64,000 nucleotides of DNA from Eledone cirrhosa (Eukaryota), in contig OZ024758.1 of NCBI GenBank assembly GCA_964016885.1, forward strand, positions 31,930,001 through 31,994,000, read 5' to 3'. A program made the position numbers and the translations under genes. Positions within the stretch are counted from its first letter, which is position 1. Every line of letters starts with the position of its first letter. Below the pieces are notes generated by a model. It searched no databases. It was not told where the DNA came from and saw nothing but the letters and a program-made list of their open reading frames with translations. Shown here in pieces: positions 45,935 through 56,519 of the stretch.

Positions 45935-47650
45935 TCATCATCATCATCATCATCATTTAACGTCCGTGTTCCACGCTTGCATGGGTTTGAACGGGAGTTT
46001 TCCCACTTGAGGCAAGAGTGGTTGTCTTGCTCACATAGGACTGTCTGACGGGTTTGCTACAGCTGGATGCCCTTCCTAACACCAACCACATTTACAGTGT
46101 GGGACTGGGAAGTTTTTACCGTGTTGCCTACACGGCCACATTACAGCATGGAATGTGTGTTTTTTTTGTCGTGACACCTACACGATCTCATTTGTTTCGG
46201 CCTGGATGTTGTGGCACCAACATAACTTTATATTGAAGAGGGCGGTGTGGATGGGGTGGGGGTGTTAGGACGGGGGTGTATTTTGTTAGAGATGCCTACT
46301 GACTGTAGTAGGTTTTACTTTGTATTTAGGTAAGGCGGGTCTTCTCTATTACTGAGTACCGCCAAAGATCTCGGTCCAGTGACATTGTCTTGGAGAGGTG
46401 TAAGTGTGTGAGGTCGGAATTTATCAGGTCGTCCCAGGTTTTTCTGGGTCTGCCTACTCCGTGGCTACCGTCTTTTTTTATTGCCCTGCATTTTTTTATA
46501 CAGCTGTCGTCTTTCATGCGCATCACGTGACCATACCAACGTAGCCTTCTCTCGAGTAAACAACATCTGATCCCTCTTATTTCTAATTTTTCCCTTAGTT
46601 CGTTTATGCTTTGCCGTTCACGTATATTACTATTACACATCCAGCGGAGCTTGCAAGCTTCGTTCCTCTCCAGTCTGCGTATATCCTCTGCACACAATGC
46701 CCAGGTCTCACTGCCATGCAGCATTGCTGTTCGTATGCAGGCATCATACAGCCTGCCTTTCATTTTTAGGGAGAACCCTTTAGCGGCTAATAGTGGTATA
46801 AGCTCTCTGAACTTTTTTCATCCAGTTCTGACTCTAGCTACTGTACTTTCAGAGCACCCTCCCCCACTGCTGATTTTGTCACCCAGGTAACGGAAGCTGT
46901 CCACTATTTCTATAGAACCCTCTGCGCAATTGAAAGAGCTAGTATTCTGTGGGCACTTGCTGCTACTTATTGCACCAGAGCACCGGCCACATGTAAAATC
47001 TATGTTCTTAGTTAGCTTACCTGTGATCCCACTACATCTTTTATGCACCCATACTTTGCATTTGGGACATAAAATGGAGTTTCTACCTACACCTTTCCTA
47101 CACACTGAGCATGGCCATTTCCCGGAAGGGACCGGCGCCTTATTTTCTTTCCTACAAACTAGAACTTTAGTCTTAGCCAGGTTAATTTTAAGGCCTTTTG
47201 ATTCTAGGCCGTGCTTCCATGTTTGGAATTTCTTCTCTAGCTCAGCCATTGATTCAGCTATGAGCGTTAGATCATCTGCGTATAGGAGTTCCCATGGGCA
47301 GCCGGTCTTGAACTCCACAGTTATAGCCTGAAGGGCAATAATAAATAGTAGGGGGCTAAGAAGAGAGCCCTGATGAACACCAACTTTTACGCTAAACTCT
47401 TCACTATATTCGTTGTTAATTCTAACCTTGCTGACTGTTTCTTTATACATGGCTTGTATAGCTCTCACAAGCCATTCATCAACACCTAGTTTTCTAAGAG
47501 CCCACCAGATAATGGAATGGGGGACTCTGTCGAAGGCTTTCTCCAAGTCGACAAAAGCTAAGTATAGGGGTTTACTTTTAGCTAGGTACTTCTCCTGTAG
47601 TTGTACAATGAAAAGAGCATCTGTGGTACTTTTGCCTGACACAAACCCGA
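45935..47650 (-). mobile_element. RTE LINE 3' half
   Basis: ORFs 46818-47690 (RT, YADD, C4HC3) and 46326-46763; (CAT)n tail. Confidence 0.92.
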
Positions 47651-48910
47651 TCATCATCACCGTTTTACGTCCGTTCTTCCACGCTAGCATGGGTTAAACG
47701 GGTTGTCCTGTTGTGGGCAGTGTCTGGTCGGCTGACCTTGTCTTGCTCATAGGGGAACTGATTCTGGCTTGATTTCTACAGCTGGATGCCCTTCCTAACA
47801 CCAACCTCATTTACAGTGAGTGCTGGGTGCTTTTTTTCCGTGACGCCTACACGTCCACTTTACAGTGTGGGCTGGGTGCTATTTTGCCGTGGCGGGGGTG
47901 GGGGCATATTGTCTATATGCTTCAGCTCTGGCTTGTACCTGTGGGGAGTCGGGTCTCCTGTATTACTGCGTGACGCCAGAGGTCTCGGTCCTGTGTCATT
48001 GCTTTAGAGAGGTGCAATTGGGTAAGGTCGACCTTCATCACCTCATCCCAGGTCTTCTTGGGTCTCCCCACTCCGCGGTTTCCATCGACTTCTACTGCTC
48101 TGCACCTTTTTATGCAGCTGTCATCCTTCATATACATCACATGTCCATACCAACGCAACCGCCTCTCCTGCACACAGCATTTGATTCCTCTTATGCTCAG
48201 GCGCCCTCTCAATTCATTTATACTTTGCCGTTCGCGTATATTACTATTACACATCTATTAGACCATGCAAGCTTCCTTTCTTTCTAATCTACGCAAGTCT
48301 TCTACAGACAGCGCCCAGGTCTCACTACCATGTAACATTGCTGTTCGTATGCACGCATCATACAGTCTGCCTTTCATTTTGAGGGAAAAGCCTTTTGCAG
48401 CTAGCAGTGGCAGTAGCTCCCTGAACCTCTTCCATCCCGTTCTTACCCTAGTTATTGTACTTTCTGAACACCCACCTCCGCTGCTAATTCAGTCACCTAG
48501 GTAGCAGAAGCTGTCTACTGTTTCTACAGAGCCCTCCCAGAGTTTGGTGGTGCTTGTTTCCTGTGACTGTTTGCTGCTTGCTGTCCCAGCACAGCTGCTA
48601 CATGTGAAGCCTACATTCTTAGTTAAGCTTCCTGAGATCCCGCTACATCTCTTGTGTACCCATTGTTTGCATTTGGGGCAGAGAATGGAGTTCCTACCTA
48701 CACCTTTCCTACATACTGAGCAAGGCCATTTCCCTGAAGGGATCTGGGTTCTGTTTTCTCGTCTACTTACAAGGACCTTAATCTTTGTCAGATTGACTTT
48801 GAGACCCTTTCTTTCTAGTCCCTGCTTCCAAGTTTGGAATTTCTTCTCTAGTTCAGTTAGATTCAGTTATAGATTCAGTTATAAGTGCGAGGTCATCTGC
48901 ATACAGGAGG
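47651..48910 (-). mobile_element. RTE LINE 3' fragment abutting the previous copy
   Basis: (CAT)n tail at 47651; PHD region and RT C-terminus. Confidence 0.88.
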
Positions 48911-49129
48911 ATATATATATATATGCATATATATATATATATATGCATATGAAGTGGTACCTTGTCTTTAAAGTGTAGACATATCCTAGACCCTCAGTAG
49001 ACAACTGATGAGGCAAACTCCCCCCCCCCCCCCTGTTCTTGCTTTCTTCGTATTCCCACTGCATTTTAAGTTACCTTAAATAGAAACTACACAGCCATTT
49101 CTATTCTCCATATATACATATATATATAT

Positions 49130-50700
49130 TTAGGTTTGTTGGTTCACCACTGGATAGAATTGGTTATTTCGTATGGTCAATCTTGATGTAATATTATGGA
49201 GAGTACTCAACGTAATGTAGCTCACCCCTCTTCATTTGTGTAGTTGGTGGTGCGAATACGGAGTTAATTATTATAAATAAAATAACAGGAGGCTGGACTG
49301 GTGTAAATCCTTGAAAGGTTTATTATACTATGATCATTTCAATGACCGGGTTCCGTATGAATCCGGTGATATCATCAGGTATTCGAAATATAACAAAGGA
49401 ACATAACAGATAAAATCCATGGGTCCGAAAATCAAAGACAAAGAGGACGACTGACCAACTAGCTGCCTTCACCTCGGTCAGTCGCCCTCAAGTGATGGCT
49501 ACTCGGTCTACTAATGACCATCTGGTGAGGGGGCGAAGGCTTATAATGTACTACCACCTCTCCGTTAAAGAGAAAAAGAAGAAAGAAAGAAAGAAGAAAA
49601 GTCAGCGTAAGGGTCACACTACAGTCAGGCTAGAAATCGCTGCGAAAAATGTTATTCCAAAGAACCTATATCTTAACAGAGGCATATATAGTAGGCGTCT
49701 GTATGGTATAATGTGTGAACAGAAAATTGGAACGTTAAACTTATGTTTAGAGTTTTAGGATGAAATCAAATTAAAAAATTAAAAAATTAAAAAATTAAGA
49801 AAAAAAAATTATTAAAAAATTAAAAAATTAAAGGTTTGGGTTGCGAGATTTATTTAATTAAATTACAGAGAGAGTCTTACATGAAAAAGTTTAAGTGTAT
49901 TATAGAGAATCTCGATAAGTTATTAGGGTGGGATATAGAGTAAAGATTAAAGCTTTCGATTGTAAATCCCAGCCAGCACCTCCTAACCACGTGTCAGCCA
50001 GTTTCGAATGGTATCGTCTAGTGAAAGAAATGGAAATTAATTTTTCCGAGTACTCTTGGAACGTAACTGCCTTAGGCTTCGGGTGTGCTAGTGGGAAGTC
50101 TACCATCTTCAACAGGCCATCGTCTATACCAAACAAATACTATAAATTCACACAGGAGGGGTTTATTTATGTGCCAGTAGAGAGAAGCATGATACAGCTA
50201 ATAGTTATGCTTAGGCCTAGAGTTTATAGGTATAATATGGTGGTCAAAACAGGCCCGGAACGAAGCGAGCCGCTCCGAGTAATTTCGTTTACCGAAAGAG
50301 GGGAAATTTATTTTTCCAAGCACTCAAGGAAGGCTGAACTACCCGAGCGCCCGGCGCGCAGCCGGGAAAGCCACCACATCAGTCGAAAGTGGTAAAACCC
50401 GATGAAATGCGCCAATAGACTATATCTAAGTCCCAGTTAGTCCGGGTTATAAGTAGTGTGATTCTTTGGTTTTGAAGATCCTATCGAAGTTGGATATATT
50501 TTCTTTTCCATCTGATTTTTTATCAAAATGTAAAGGCACGCCATCTAAGTCTTCTTATAAACGAGTCCGATTTCTCAATAAGTTGTTTAAGATAGTCCTT
50601 ATTCCTAGGTAAAGGTATGTCTTTTAGAGAAGAAGAGATCTTAAAGAATTCCATTTTAATCAGTTATAATTTAAAGTGCTCAACAATAAAGGAGCTAAAT
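49130..50700 (-). mobile_element. Non-autonomous Naiad-derived PLE (N-terminal ORF remnant plus structured 3' region)
   Basis: The minus-strand ATG at ~50654 gives MEFFKISSSLKDIPLPRNKDYLKQLIEKSDSFIRRLRWRAF, resembling a Naiad N-terminus. No RT or GIY-YIG follows; an HHR lies near the 3' end. Confidence 0.65.
49325..49382 (-). ncRNA. Minimal type I hammerhead ribozyme, canonical core
   Basis: ATAC-CTGATGA-tatcACCGGaTTC atacg GAAcCCGGTcatt-GAAA-TGATCA-TA-GTAT, then AATAAA. Confidence 0.82.
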
Positions 50701-50772
50701 ATATGCAGAGGTTATATTTAATTTGTTGTACTTTCTAATATTTCTACTTCATAAATATACTTTGTATTATTA

Positions 50773-50940
50773 GCAGTATCGGACGCCATGCTTTCCAGCA
50801 TAGTTATGTCCCTTTACGATCTGAGTTCAAATCCCGCCGAGGTTGACTTTGCCTTTCATCCTTACGGGGTCGATAAAATAAAGTACCAGTAATGCACTGG
50901 GTAATTGCTGGCCTTGTGCCTAAAGTAGAAACAATTATTA
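50773..50940 (+). mobile_element. tRNA-derived SINE
   Basis: Same B-box, core and 3' end as the other copies. Confidence 0.8.
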
Positions 50941-52107
50941 CACTTATCAATCCTACCTCCAAAAATATATCATAACCTTTTTGTATGACTACTTGAAATT
51001 CTTTTAAGAAAAGGTTTTGAAAATTCTAAAAATTTCCTTTGAAAGAACTTTCTGAAGGTTTTTGAGAATTTTTTTAAAGGCTTTTGGTAAAAAATTTTTT
51101 GAAAGATCCTTTTGAAAGATACGGAAAAACCATTATTTTCATATCTTACAATATTTTTATATCTTCCAATATTTTAAACATTTTTAATATTTATGTATTT
51201 TCATATATTTCCAAATATTTATATATATGTGGAATAATGTATGGTCTATGTTTTAATTATATTTTAAGATGAATTTTTATAACTTCTTATAACTTTTTAA
51301 AGAGATTTTTATATATCCTTGGAGTCATTTGAGTTTTTAAAAAATCCCTTTTAACTTCCTTATTGTTTTTATAATCTCAATTTTTATAGTCTTAATTTAT
51401 AGTCTGAATTTTTAAATGGTTTTAGTATATACTTCTAATTAAGTACTTATTCCTCTGTAAACTCTCGTAATTTTTCGTAATCTTTGGAATTATTTAGGTG
51501 TTTAAGATTGGACTTACAACGATTAATAAATTCTGGCTAAATATAATTTTGCCAAATTTACTTTAATTAAATAAACAATACTAAGTTTTTTTCCAATGTA
51601 AAATAATTTATAATCTATAACATACTCATCTAAACCCATATATTATTAATACATCTTAATATATTTTAAATACTTCTTTTTGTAATATATCCTATTTTTA
51701 ATTAAATTTTAACAATATTTTTATTTATTCTTAATTTAATTTTTAACGTATCATTATAAATATTATAAACATAGCATAATGAACGTTATATTTACGATTT
51801 GAGTATTCATCCATGAACAACTCATTTCTTCGCTCGCTTCTCTTCACTATCACTATGCATAATCTTGTCTTTCTTTCCCCCCTTTTTTATCACCCTTTTT
51901 CTTTCTTCTTCTCTCTTTCTCTATTCTTTCTCTCTCCCTTTCAATATTTTTTCTAAACCGTTGTTTTTTCAATTTTTCTGACACTCATTGGCATACTCAC
52001 TCATAACTTTGAATCACCCTCAATATTATCTCCACCATCCAGCGAACCTCAACCGTTAAAGTTGTCTTTATGCGGTTATGTCAATATTTATTTATAAAAC
52101 AAATTTG

Positions 52108-52173
52108 TATTTCATCTGATGAAAGCGCACCATAATTTGCCTTGGTCGCCCTTGAAATATATATAATAAAATA
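52108..52173 (+). ncRNA. Minimal type I hammerhead ribozyme
   Basis: TATTTCAT-CTGATGA-AAGCGCACCA taatttgcct TGGTCGCCCTT-GAAA-TATATA-TA-ATAAAATA. Confidence 0.65.
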
Positions 52174-52316
52174 ATTATGGTTTTATAAATATAGTTTCCA
52201 TTTGTTAATATATTGTATATTTACTCCACTAATATGTTGAGTGCTTTATAACAGTTATAAAATGTTTAAGCTTGTTGAATCCCAACAAATTAAATATAAC
52301 CTCTGCATATATATAT

Positions 52317-52823: not shown

Positions 52824-55311
52824 CAGTGAGTCCTCGATATTCGGTAGTTCTTTATCCGGTAAATTCACAGATACGGTTTTGGGTAATTACTACCATCAAT
52901 TCTATTTACGGTAAAAAAAATTCCCAGATACGGTTTTTGGTCATGTTTTGTTTATATTATACCGTAGCGCTACCTACAGTAAGCAATAAATTCCCCCCTG
53001 AATTCGTGGAAACTGACTGCTATTCGAATTCTAGGAAAATTGTTTTACTACTGCTATCGTACTAACTGACCTTACCGAGAAACTGGCCAATCACGAGCGA
53101 GTTCAGATATCAGTCGATGACGTCATAACTCTTAACTGATCACTTCAGTTTGGCAAACTAGCGTGTCCTCTCAGTGAAAGAATTTTTGCCGAACTGAAGT
53201 GATCAGTTAAGAGTTATGACGTCATTCAAAGTAAGAGAAAACCTGACGGCGTGTTTTTGAAGCATAATTATCACGACATATCTTATAACCCCATATCTCA
53301 TGGCCCCAAACATCCTGCGAATATTGCTGATGCAGATGGAAAGGCCAAACGCATGAGGAAGAGCCTAACTTTGGAGATAAAGCTGGACATTTTGAAAAGG
53401 AAGGAACTGGGGCAAGGTACGTTCGCCATAAGTCGTAACTGAGGCCTAGCCCAGTCTACATTCTGGACTGTTTTAAAAAATAGTGAGGCTGTCAAAAAAG
53501 CTGGGGAGAATGCTATGAGTCTACAGAGTAAATTGTTGACCAAACACCGTGAGCCGATTATGGATAGGATGGAAAGGTTGCTCAAAATTTGGATTGACGA
53601 CCAAAATTGTCAAAATATGCCTCTGTCTTTAAATGTAATCAGTGAGAAAACATTGTCCATTATTGACAGGCTCAAGACTGAAATGGGGGTGGTATTCAAG
53701 GCAAGCAAAGGCTGGTTTGATAAGTTCAAACAACGTTCGAGTCTTCACAACATAAAAGTTACAGGTGAGGCTGCCAGTTCTGACAAAGAGAGTGCTGAAA
53801 AATTCAAGGCAGAGTTAGAGAAATGCATTGCAGAGAAGGGGTACAGCAAAAATCAGGTTATTTATTATGATGAAACAGGACTTTATTGGAAAAAGATGAC
53901 CAGTAATACTTATATTGACAAAGAAGAGAAAAGTGCGAAGGGGTTCAAAGCCTCAAAGGACCGCGTTACTTAGAGGGAATGCAGAAGGAGATTTAAAGCT
54001 AAAGCCACTCATTATCTACCATTCTGAAACTCCAAGAGCACTCAAGAGGTTACTTAAGCAATACCTACCAGTGATATGGAAGTCTAATAAGAAGGCATGG
54101 CTGATCACTTCAATTCACCAGGATTTTTTCACCTCATATCTGTCATCAACCCTTAAGGAATATGCATTAGCTAACAACATTGCCAACTGTTTTCTGCTAT
54201 TAGTGGACAACGCTCCCAGCCACCCACGGGCAATGGAAGACTGGTCAGAAAATATTGAGGTTTTGTTTCTCCCCCCAAACACCACAGCTCTCATTCAGCC
54301 GATGGATCAAACAGTCATCAAAACATTTAAGGCATGCTACCAGCGGAGAACCATGCAGCAGCTGATAAAGGGCACAGATGGGCCTGACAAGCCCACGAGC
54401 AGGGAATGGTGGAAATTGTACAACATCAAGCACGGCTTAGACAACATCAAGGTATCTTGGGAAGAAGTGAAGCAGTCTACCATGAACTTGGCCTGGAAGA
54501 AATTATGGCCAGCATGTGTGAATGACTTCCAAGGCTTTGCTGAGGACATTGGTGCGATAAAAAAAAGATATTGTAAATCTCTGCCATAGAGCTGGCTTCG
54601 ATGGTGTTAATGATGATGATGTGCAAGACCTTTTGGAAAGCCACGCTGAACCACTCTCCAATGATGAACTCATAGAACTAGACAAGGCGATACAGGAGAC
54701 AGAAAAAGAAGAAGAGGAGGTCGAAGAACCTGTGCGTGGCTTGGATATAAAAACTCTAAGAGAATGTCTCGGGAGTATCGAAACAATCTTAGAAACCCTG
54801 AAGGAGCGTGACCCCAACCCTGCTAAGGAGCAGCAACGTGGCTCAAGACGTCGAGAAAAGTGTCAAGATTTACCAAGAAATGTATGAAGCCAAAAGAAAC
54901 ACCGCCAAACAGTCCTCCATCTACTCTTTCTTCAAGCCAGTCACACCTGCCAACCGTGCTACAGCTGGCCCTTCAACATCCACGGCAGTCAACGAGTTTG
55001 TTGGTTTTGAGCCTCCCACATCACCCTCATCCTCCCATGGCAACTCAGCCCAAGATAAGTAAGGGCTGAAACCATACTGTCCCTTAGCCTAGGGAGGGAC
55101 AAATGAAGTGGCACATCATCTGATGGACTACGCGGCATGTGTAAGGTACAGTAAATAAAAAAACAACATTATTTCTTTTCTGTAGAGATGACTTTTTCGA
55201 TGTGCTGGAACGCATCCCTATCTATTGCATGTTACAATGTGTTCTCTATACGGTAATTCGATATACGGTAAGGGTTTCAGGAATGCATATATACCGTATA
55301 TCGAGGACTCA

Positions 55312-55349: not shown

Positions 55350-56519
55350 ATATTTGGGGAGGGTCATATTTGCGTAATATTGCCAGAATTAATAACAGAA
55401 CACACTCACTGTTTGGTTGGTTTTTGCTTCTCGCTGTCTTTTATATATATATATCTGCGATCTAACTTACTCGGTCCTCAATGTTGCCATTGACTGACCG
55501 GCGGTCAAAAATAATACAGATACAATATAGACAAACACATATATATATAGTTTACATAAATCTTTCGTTGCACATCTGCAACATCGTCAGTGGTGTTATA
55601 TTCATTGTTCCTCCTGTTGTGTTGTATGTCTACGCCATTTTTTTGTTCAGTCTGTCTATATATTTATTTATTTATTTGCTTGTTTGTTTATCTTATTTTA
55701 TTTTGTCTTCTTTGCGCATGCGTTTGCGTGTGTGTATAGTGTTATGTGTGATGTGTGACTAGTGTGTATAGTGTTGTGTCTGCTGGGTGACTAGTGTGTG
55801 TTTATGTGCTTGTGTATGTATTTATTTATCTTATTTTATTTAATTTAATTTACTTATTTATTTATACTTCTCTTAGGTCAGTGTTGTTTGTTTGGGTGTT
55901 GTTGTTGTTCCACTCATTCTTTCTGTTTAGCTAAACAGAAAGAATGAGTGGAACAACAACAACACCCAAACAAACAACACTGACCTAAGAGAAGTATAAA
56001 TAAATAAGTAAATTAAATTAAATAAAATAAGATAAATAAATACATACACAAGCACATAAACACACACTAGTCACCCAGCAGACACAACACTATACACACT
56101 AGTCACACATCACACATAACACTATACACACACGCAAACGCATGCGCAAAGAAGACAAAATAAAATAAGATAAACAAACAAGCAAATAAATAAATAAATA
56201 TATAGACAGACTGAACAAAAAAATGGCGTAGACATACAACACAACAGGAGGAACAATGAATATAACACCACTGACGATGTTGCAGATGTGCAACGAAAGA
56301 TTTATGTAAACTATATATATATGTGTTTGTCTATATTGTATCTGTATTATTTTTGACCGCCGGTCAGTCAATGGCAACATTGAGGACCGAGTAAGTTAGA
56401 TCGCAGATATATATATATAAAAGACAGCGAGAAGCAAAAACCAACCAAACAGTGAGTGTGTTCTGTTATTAATTCTGGCAATATTACGCAAATATGACCC
56501 TCCCCAAATATAACAATAT
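55342..56519. repeat. Spacerless palindrome, 589-bp arms
   Basis: Centre ...gtttag|ctaaac... at 55930/55931. Mirror-image ORFs 55481-55762 (+) and 56099-56380 (-) are identical. Confidence 0.95.

What the first reader, a model, noticed from the sequence alone, without database searches (positions are those of the whole stretch)
49325..50700. Mini-Naiad RNA: N-terminal peptide remnant, strand-specific H-type pseudoknot and hammerhead ribozyme
Seen: the minus strand carries a short Naiad-like N-terminal ORF (SLKDIPLP...LIEKSDSFIRRLRWRAF) with no RT or endonuclease. At 49443-49540 it can form a pseudoknot: S1 GCCUUCGCC/GGUGAAGGC (9 bp) and S2 GAGGGCGACUGACC/GGUCAGUCGUCCUC (14 bp). The single non-Watson-Crick pair in each stem is a G-U wobble only on the minus strand, the same strand as the ORF and as a canonical HHR about 60 nt downstream. 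Known: PLE RTs are related to telomerase RT, and PLE pseudo-LTRs carry HHRs. Inference: this may be a non-autonomous PLE RNA whose pseudoknot is an RT-recruiting or 3'-stabilising element. I know of no description of such a pseudoknot.
Basis: partly seen in the sequence, partly recalled or inferred. Interest (0 to 1): 0.75.

Follow-up and report, generated by a model that had tools for sequence, protein, structure and literature searches.

The report
Non-coding passenger of Hydra retrotransposons
This spot is a one-off fusion between the start of a known kind of animal jumping gene and a 2-kb non-coding repeat that likely borrows such genes' copying enzyme; the repeat carries a predicted self-cutting RNA and a conserved hairpin where copies often break off, but the proposed RNA knot is only weakly supported.

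Summary
The letters are as described; the reading mostly is not. The peptide remnant is the 5' end of an autonomous Penelope-like element with Hydra-clade motifs (RT first, GIY-YIG last), not a Naiad. It is joined, at this locus only, to a 5'-truncated copy of a separate non-coding family (B; 1,977-nt head-to-tail unit; sister families 2.4-2.6 kb). B has a Hydra-type hammerhead and the two bulged hairpins that lie just past the (TA)n-inserted 3' ends of Hydra families, so Hydra RT/endonuclease likely mobilises it. Stem S2 is well supported: kept in sister families with double-sided changes, and a hotspot of 5' truncation (25 of 54 copies at risk, 8 expected). S1 is weak: the perfect 9-bp allele is 8 of 177 genome matches, the family-majority S1 is at chance level, and two registers compete. 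The strand argument fails for S1. S2 is absent from the autonomous families checked, so it is unlikely to recruit RT; the twin hairpins are the better candidates. The scan noted those hairpins before, elsewhere in this genome. No RNA data; cleavage and folding untested.

The parts
50729..52311 (+). Inverted, 5'-truncated copy of autonomous family A (3' UTR, hammerhead, tail), ending in (TA)n; interrupted by a short interspersed repeat
   Evidence: BLAST to family-A copies L082-L089
50772..50933 (.). Short interspersed repeat inserted in the A copy, flanked by a 6-nt direct repeat (50766-50771 / 50934-50939)
   Evidence: SINE identity not tested
52116..52163 (+). Family-A type I hammerhead motif (stem II closed by A-U, C.C at position 4)
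52223..52242 (+). Family-A bulged hairpin 1, just past its first preferred 3' end
50466..50728 (-). 5' piece of family A: tail end, hairpin 2 and ORF start
   Evidence: 90-96% identity to 8 A copies
50678..50695 (-). Family-A bulged hairpin 2, just before the start codon
50523..50654 (-). 43-aa remnant of the Hydra-type ORF N-terminus; stop reached after a frameshift relative to other A copies
50462..50471 (-). A/B junction with about 8-10 nt of microhomology; single copy in the genome
49127..50470 (-). 5'-truncated copy of non-coding family B (unit positions 622-1977, 93% identical to the family majority), ending in (TA)n at the second preferred end
49532..49540 (-). S1 5' arm; can pair with the S2 loop in two competing registers
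49443..49489 (-). S2 hairpin (14-16 bp, 19-nt loop): conserved with double-sided changes; hotspot of 5' truncation and inversion
49465..49473 (-).
49325..49382 (-). Family-B type I hammerhead motif: intact core, 4-bp stem I, palindromic stem III, stem II with U.U closing and C.C at position 4; predicted cut after 49329
   Evidence: activity untested
49205..49264 (-). Family-B bulged hairpin 1 (long-loop form), a few nt past the first preferred 3' end (about 49270)

Best explanation
The locus is a single-copy chimera: 260 nt from the 5' end of an autonomous element with Hydra-clade motifs joined by microhomology to a truncated copy of a 2-kb non-coding repeat (family B) that is likely copied in trans by a Hydra RT/GIY-YIG protein. 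Inferred mechanism: the endonuclease nicks (TA)n; RT starts inside the RNA at an AU-rich stretch 0-12 nt 5' of either of two bulged hairpins, which B shares with autonomous families; it copies the hammerhead and then often stalls or switches template at the GC-rich S2 hairpin, giving short pseudo-LTRs and head-to-head inversions centred on S2. S2 forms as a hairpin; pairing of its loop with the upstream S1 arm is possible but marginal and not needed in its 9-bp form for B to spread. The chimera probably arose by a template switch from B RNA to A RNA during one insertion, or by a later deletion between neighbours.
For: Chimera: 39 of 39 other full A matches end by window 50455; 5 of 29 B loci reach 50470 and none crosses it, and the 4 whose upstream DNA was printed carry B sequence there; junction 33-mer single-copy. 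A: intact 741-aa ORF in L089 with RWR, DKT, CxCx5C linker, C-terminal GIY-YIG, CxxC and CxH against the Hydra description. B: tail runs into body head to tail in 27 of 30 loci; unit 1,977 nt; longest ATG ORF 72 aa or less and no Hydra profile hit in B or three sister units. Ends: 73 of 74 (TA)n-bound B ends, 22 of 23 A ends, 33 of 33 F ends and 6 of 7 G ends lie 0-12 nt before a bulged hairpin; motif 18,478 matches against 79 for the reversed control, first pair kept in 99 of the 100 listed (counted by eye). S2: 92.8% of cells paired, 3 of 14 pairs with double-sided change in 26 sequences; 25 of 54 copies at risk break within -230..-160 against 8.0 expected, P=3.6e-8, or 21 of 50, P=3.1e-6, without four low-identity alignments; at least 7 of 26 are long inversions centred in S2. 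Precedent for two internal RT starts matching tail ends: PMC11167929.
Against: No autonomous element with B's own pLTR was found; B's HHR-to-hairpin region is only weakly similar to A (z 3.7) and G (z 2.7) and not to C, F or H. In family H only 11 of 26 (TA)n ends lie before a hairpin that my descriptor detects, and family C gave one end with no detected hairpin. BLAST ends inside a palindrome are imprecise, and the baseline hazard is a rough piecewise estimate. Double-sided S2 changes could come from arm-to-arm copying during inversion rather than from selection. No B sequence was found in 27 A loci, so A and B fusions are not a habit. Nothing here shows transcription, cleavage or trans-mobilisation.
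Confidence: 0.75

Rival explanations
1. S1 and S2 form a functional H-type pseudoknot (first reader's register, or a shifted register that uses the first loop bases and, in short-loop families, the top of S2) that sets where RT stops or protects the RNA next to the hammerhead.
For: The S1 arm survives a 33-nt deletion of loop 1 in two sister families and can still pair. Shifted outer 5 bp: 93% paired, one column shows U.G, C-G and U-A and never C.A; duplex -8 to -11 kcal/mol in two sister families and -10.3 in B. The pairing-restoring G allele appears in at least three places on the copy tree.
Against: 8 of 177 exact genome matches have the full 9-bp allele; the 49-copy allele has two mismatches; majority S1 at chance level (P=0.78 without, 0.29 with one mismatch); the closing pair is unpaired in 15 of 25 sequences and another in 11 of 25; duplexes of only -3 to -4 kcal/mol in two families (consensus partly undefined); pyrimidine-rich against purine-rich arms keep pairing in 3 of 4 transition states by chance; RNAalifold finds only S2 (cannot predict knots); one B-like copy lacks the 3' arm (L301).
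Confidence: 0.2
2. S2 is a selectively neutral inverted repeat left by an old snap-back event; it stalls RT as a by-product and is kept paired only by arm-to-arm conversion.
For: PLEs make inversions routinely; inversions centred on S2 do replace one arm by the complement of the other; S2 arms (5 of 14 and 4 of 13 variable columns) are no more conserved than the flanks (5 of 16, 5 of 23); S2 is absent from autonomous families.
Against: The loop is about twice as variable (12 of 19 columns); the G.U at pair 5 persists in most families, so the arms are not routinely homogenised; the block shared between B and its sisters starts about 12 nt before S2.
Confidence: 0.3
3. One reading: a mini-Naiad RNA that keeps an N-terminal peptide and uses the pseudoknot to recruit RT.
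For: All named features lie on one strand within 1.3 kb in this copy.
Against: Junction single-copy; ORF is RT-first with C-terminal GIY-YIG; Naiads are reported to lack canonical HHRs; S2 absent from the autonomous families checked.
Confidence: 0.02

Closest known systems
Hydra clade of C-terminal EN+ Penelope-like elements (Craig et al. 2021, PMC8557442; e.g. Hydra-1_Obim in its File S1)
   Same: Family A: RT then GIY-YIG, DKT, CxCx5C linker, CxxC and CxH, HHR, (TA)n targets, pseudo-LTRs, inverted 5'-truncated copies. Family B: same insertion anatomy, HHR of the same stem-II build.
   Different: A has RWR for RWK and a unit of about 3.9-4.0 kb (paper: generally under 3 kb). B codes for nothing. 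The passages read describe no non-autonomous Hydra family, no twin hairpins and no S2-like helix.
Animal non-LTR retrozymes (PMC7229834; bioRxiv 10.64898/2026.07.22.740005)
   Same: Non-coding, head-to-tail units with a type I HHR; proposed to derive from and depend on PLEs.
Non-autonomous Chlamys elements such as MRC1 (PMC8557442)
   Same: Non-coding PLE passengers with pseudo-LTRs and head-to-tail copies.
   Different: Other clade and host; those resemble their autonomous partners at the 3' end, whereas B shares only short structural motifs with the autonomous families found.
Poseidon_Ac internal RT initiation (Frangieh et al. 2024, PMC11167929)
   Same: Two internal start sites that define the tail, within a stem-loop region; HHR upstream.
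   Different: Here the tail is 80-150 nt, each end sits before a bulged hairpin with covariation across families, and nothing was tested in vitro.
Naiad PLEs (PMC8557442)
   Same: (TA)n preference, pseudo-LTRs.
   Different: Naiads have an N-terminal GIY-YIG, DKA and no canonical HHR; family A has none of these traits.

Membership tests
Naiad PLE (family A, source of the peptide) | N-terminal GIY-YIG before RT | tested here: not met
   ORF starts with the RT N-terminal region; GIY-YIG is C-terminal
Naiad PLE (family A) | DKG modified to DKA; no canonical HHR | tested here: not met
   DKT present; HHR motif in all 8 widened A loci
Hydra PLE (family A) | Single ORF, RT then C-terminal GIY-YIG | tested here: met
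   741-aa ORF in L089, read by eye; Pfam gave no hit on it
Hydra PLE (family A) | RWK, DKT, CxCx5C linker, CxxC and CxH, no CCHH | tested here: met
   RWR (variant), DKT, CNCRNKSNC, CSLC, CKH
Hydra PLE (family A) | HHR in pLTR and (TA)n targets | tested here: met
Hydra PLE (family A) | RT phylogeny groups with published Hydra families | not tested
   No tree with reference sequences was built
Non-autonomous PLE (family B) | No coding capacity | tested here: met
   Longest ATG ORF 56-72 aa and no Hydra HMM hit in 4 of 4 units
Non-autonomous PLE (family B) | Partial tandems, inverted 5'-truncated copies, two fixed 3' ends | tested here: met
Non-autonomous PLE (family B) | Identified autonomous partner sharing the 3' end | tested here: inconclusive
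   Only twin hairpins and HHR build are shared; no coding element with B's pLTR found
Non-LTR retrozyme | Tandem units each with a type I HHR | tested here: met
   Two HHRs one unit apart in L156; full units in L301, L326, L327
Non-LTR retrozyme | Small monomer (under 1 kb) | tested here: not met
   1,977-2,590 nt
Non-LTR retrozyme | Self-cleavage and circular RNA in vivo | not testable with these tools
   No RNA run listed
Type I hammerhead (family B) | CUGANGA, GAAA, UH core with stems I-III | tested here: met
   near-identical in five sister-family copies
Type I hammerhead (family B) | G10.1-C11.1 closing pair of stem II | tested here: not met
   U.U in B and sisters; no variant with both bases changed in the genome; no Rfam hit
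H-type pseudoknot | Stem 2 conserved with covariation | tested here: met
H-type pseudoknot | Crossing stem 1 conserved with covariation | tested here: inconclusive
HDV-like ribozyme | P3/L3 and P4 between and after the crossing stems | tested here: not met
   Only 0-2 nt between S2 5' arm and S1 3' arm; layout of the family recalled; no Rfam hit

The most novel reading that the evidence does not exclude
Family B and its sisters are 2-2.6-kb non-coding RNAs that parasitise a telomerase-related Hydra RT with a three-part signal: twin bulged hairpins that set where copying starts, a conserved atypical hammerhead, and an S1/S2 pseudoknot, possibly switching between two registers, that works as a programmed stop and as a self-complementary joint at which two cDNAs primed from opposite target strands anneal, a functional parallel to the template boundary of telomerase RNA.
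Probability: 0.15. Interest if true: 0.72.

Novelty: new variant of a known kind. Interest (0 to 1): 0.4.

Why it matters
How PLE reverse transcriptases, the closest relatives of telomerase RT, choose their RNA and where they start and stop is largely open; only one PLE has been reconstituted (PMC11167929). A non-coding passenger shows what the enzyme needs in cis: B keeps the hammerhead and both end hairpins while the rest of the unit diverges, and this genome holds at least 60 intact young Hydra ORFs with which to test it. The S2 hotspot offers a sequence-level cause for the short pseudo-LTRs and head-to-head inversions typical of PLEs. The finding as written (mini-Naiad with peptide and RT-recruiting pseudoknot) would not stand.

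Tried and rejected
Rfam scan of the whole window at E<=1: 89 matches, none in 49000-51000. Mini-Naiad family: rejected. Second or scrambled hammerhead hidden in S1/S2 (B has CUGA..GAAA-like letters there): rejected by eye, as neither block is kept in sister families. HDV-like fold: no room for P3/P4. Search for a relative with another stem-II closing pair: 0 matches. Metagenome pattern scan for S2: 61 loci, 0 homologous to B, 0 with a hammerhead core behind. Viral contigs with the Hydra alignment: nothing. Sequencing runs: no RNA holder listed; no reads were laid, so expression and variants in other samples stay open. MAFFT alignment of 13 end hairpins was unusable because loop lengths vary; pairs were read by descriptor instead. 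The script stopped with an error after the numbers cited; the HHR comparison was repeated. Literature: searches showed no description of a pseudoknot or S2-like helix in a PLE 3' region, of non-autonomous Hydra elements or of the twin hairpins; subscription papers, Repbase entries, Craig's Files S2 and figures (only rows of File S1 seen) and preprint supplements were not seen.

Full report
Observation. On the minus strand the window has a 43-aa ORF start (50654-50523), the S1 and S2 arms at the stated places and a hammerhead core at 49382-49325. S2 folds at -30.6 kcal/mol, z -4.9 (plus strand -22.2, z -3.6). Rfam reports nothing in this region. The window lies in a 3.0-Gb genome rich in (TA)n; I did not identify the organism.

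Two families, one junction. The pseudoknot-hammerhead stretch is a repeat (2,336 first-look candidates, 40 scored). Of 29 other loci, five align up to window 50470 and none beyond; the four printed continue upstream with shared non-coding sequence. The ORF piece is a different repeat: all 39 other full matches stop by 50455 and run on into an RT. A 33-mer across the junction matches only the window at up to 2 mismatches. The two parents share about 8-10 nt there. The peptide is therefore not part of the RNA family.

Family A has Hydra, not Naiad, features. [quoted passage not shown] These are the Hydra traits in Craig et al. 2021 (PMC8557442; section 11 read whole, other passages and File S1 rows seen), which also says Naiads lack canonical hammerheads. 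31 relatives at 31-42% identity were found, almost all unnamed. In the window an inverted 3' copy of A (50729-52311, plus strand) sits back to back with the 5' piece, the usual PLE arrangement.

Family B. Tail runs into body head to tail in 27 of 30 loci; the unit is 1,977 nt. A pattern for its first end hairpin gave 3,104 matches against 94 for the control and opened sister families with units of 2,412, 2,568 and 2,590 nt. None of the four units has an ATG ORF above 72 aa or a Hydra profile hit; the last 370 nt or so are 82-87% identical to B, the body mostly 68-78% or unalignable. The hammerhead is near-identical in five sister copies. It has the core, a 4-bp stem I and a palindromic stem III, but stem II closes with U.U and has C.C at position 4, as family A's does after three pairs; PLE hammerheads are reported to be atypical, dimer-dependent and slow (PMC4209133, passages).

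What ties B to Hydra. A 23-nt match between A and B proved to be a hairpin: four-pair lower stem, two-base 3' bulge, variable upper stem. Its short form occurs 18,478 times against 79 for the reversed control; among the 100 listed matches the first pair is A-U in 76, G-C in 17, G.U in 6 and A.C in 1 (by eye). It occurs twice per element in A, B, F and G, and (TA)n-bound 3' ends fall 0-12 nt before it: B 73 of 74, A 22 of 23, F 33 of 33, G 6 of 7; in H only 11 of 26 (no first hairpin detected) and C gave a single end. This fits the two internal RT starts shown for Poseidon_Ac (PMC11167929, parts 1-2 of 4 read). I found this before looking at scan notes; two notes on other pieces of this genome report the same hairpins. 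They are not independent support.

S2. Intact in all subfamily majorities of B; 14/14 in 46 of 87 decayed copies. In an alignment of 26 copies (6 B-type, 20 from sister families, picked for having the whole region) 92.8% of cells pair, with A-U/G-C, C-G/U-A and G.U/G-C exchanges; these cells count sequences, not events, about four lineage events in all. Among 83 copies taken by genome position from the list (90 loci fetched), 5' ends pile up on S2: 25 of 54 copies that reach -160 stop within 70 nt against 8.0 expected (P=3.6e-8; 21 of 50, P=3.1e-6 without four low-identity alignments), and only 4 of 29 stop in the next 70 nt. At least 7 of 26 such copies are long head-to-head inversions centred in S2. 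So S2 very likely forms during reverse transcription (inference). No comparable stem lies upstream of the hammerhead in seven stretches from families A, C, F, G and the L153 family (longest 6-10 bp, at most 3 G-C), nor by eye in distant relatives such as L280, L291, L313 and L314.

S1. The window's perfect 9 bp rests on a rare allele: exact counts 8 (full), 120 (one C.A) and 49 (two). A crossing helix that long has P=0.021 for the window allele and P=0.78 for the majority. Some changes look compensatory and the arm survives a 33-nt loop deletion, but pyrimidine-purine arms keep pairing in three of four transition states anyway, and duplex energies range from about -3 to -11 kcal/mol among families with a usable consensus. 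I leave the pseudoknot at about 0.2. The strand argument is weak: two wobbles give one chance in four, and the majority S1 has a C.A on this strand.

Mechanism, shown and inferred. Shown: chimera, two families, domain order, non-coding units, end positions, S2 conservation and breakpoint excess. Inferred: Hydra protein binds the end hairpins and primes from nicked (TA)n; B is a passenger; S2 stalls RT or joins two cDNAs; the chimera is a template switch (a later deletion cannot be excluded; no B in 27 A loci). Untested: transcription, cleavage, pseudoknot. No RNA run was listed.

Comparison and verdict. B works like an animal non-LTR retrozyme or a non-autonomous PLE (PMC7229834 passages; bioRxiv 10.64898/2026.07.22.740005 part 1 of 5 and passages) but is two to three times longer than the longest unit in that survey and has PLE-type truncations. 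Five searches found no description of such Hydra passengers or of S2. New variant of a known kind; interest 0.4.

Noticed in passing
G000 genome-wide; window 50678-50695 (-), 52223-52242 (+), 49205-49264 (-): Twin bulged hairpins just past the two preferred 3' ends of Hydra-type families, with compensatory changes in both stems (18,478 matches against 79 control); also in earlier scan notes.
   Followed up: yes
L235-L264 (e.g. G000:C1:437200465-437213151): A young Hydra family with at least 60 uninterrupted ORFs in 3.53-kb tandem units; it has both end hairpins, but my CUGANGA..GAAA pattern found no hammerhead in three copies.
   Followed up: partly
L151:3677-5815 and L320: Another Hydra family (41% identical to A) whose first hairpin has a long loop and whose tail is about 146 nt, like family B; overall pLTR similarity to B not significant.
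   Followed up: partly
L153:2835, L154:3119, L155:575-700, L156:1747 and 5179: At least four further hammerhead-bearing PLE-type ends nested in the same (TA)n tracts as B copies.
   Followed up: no
L326, L327, L301: Sister non-coding units contain internal tandem duplications of about 230 nt.
   Followed up: no
window 46326-48866 (-): Two decayed LINE-type RT fragments (RTE-like by recalled resemblance) flank the PLE insertion.
   Followed up: no
window 53203-54589 (+): Fragments of a transposase-like ORF (Tigger/pogo-like by recalled resemblance).
   Followed up: no
window 55891-55970: A perfect 38-bp inverted repeat (Rfam mir-3910 match below its gathering score), probably a fold-back repeat.
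   Followed up: no
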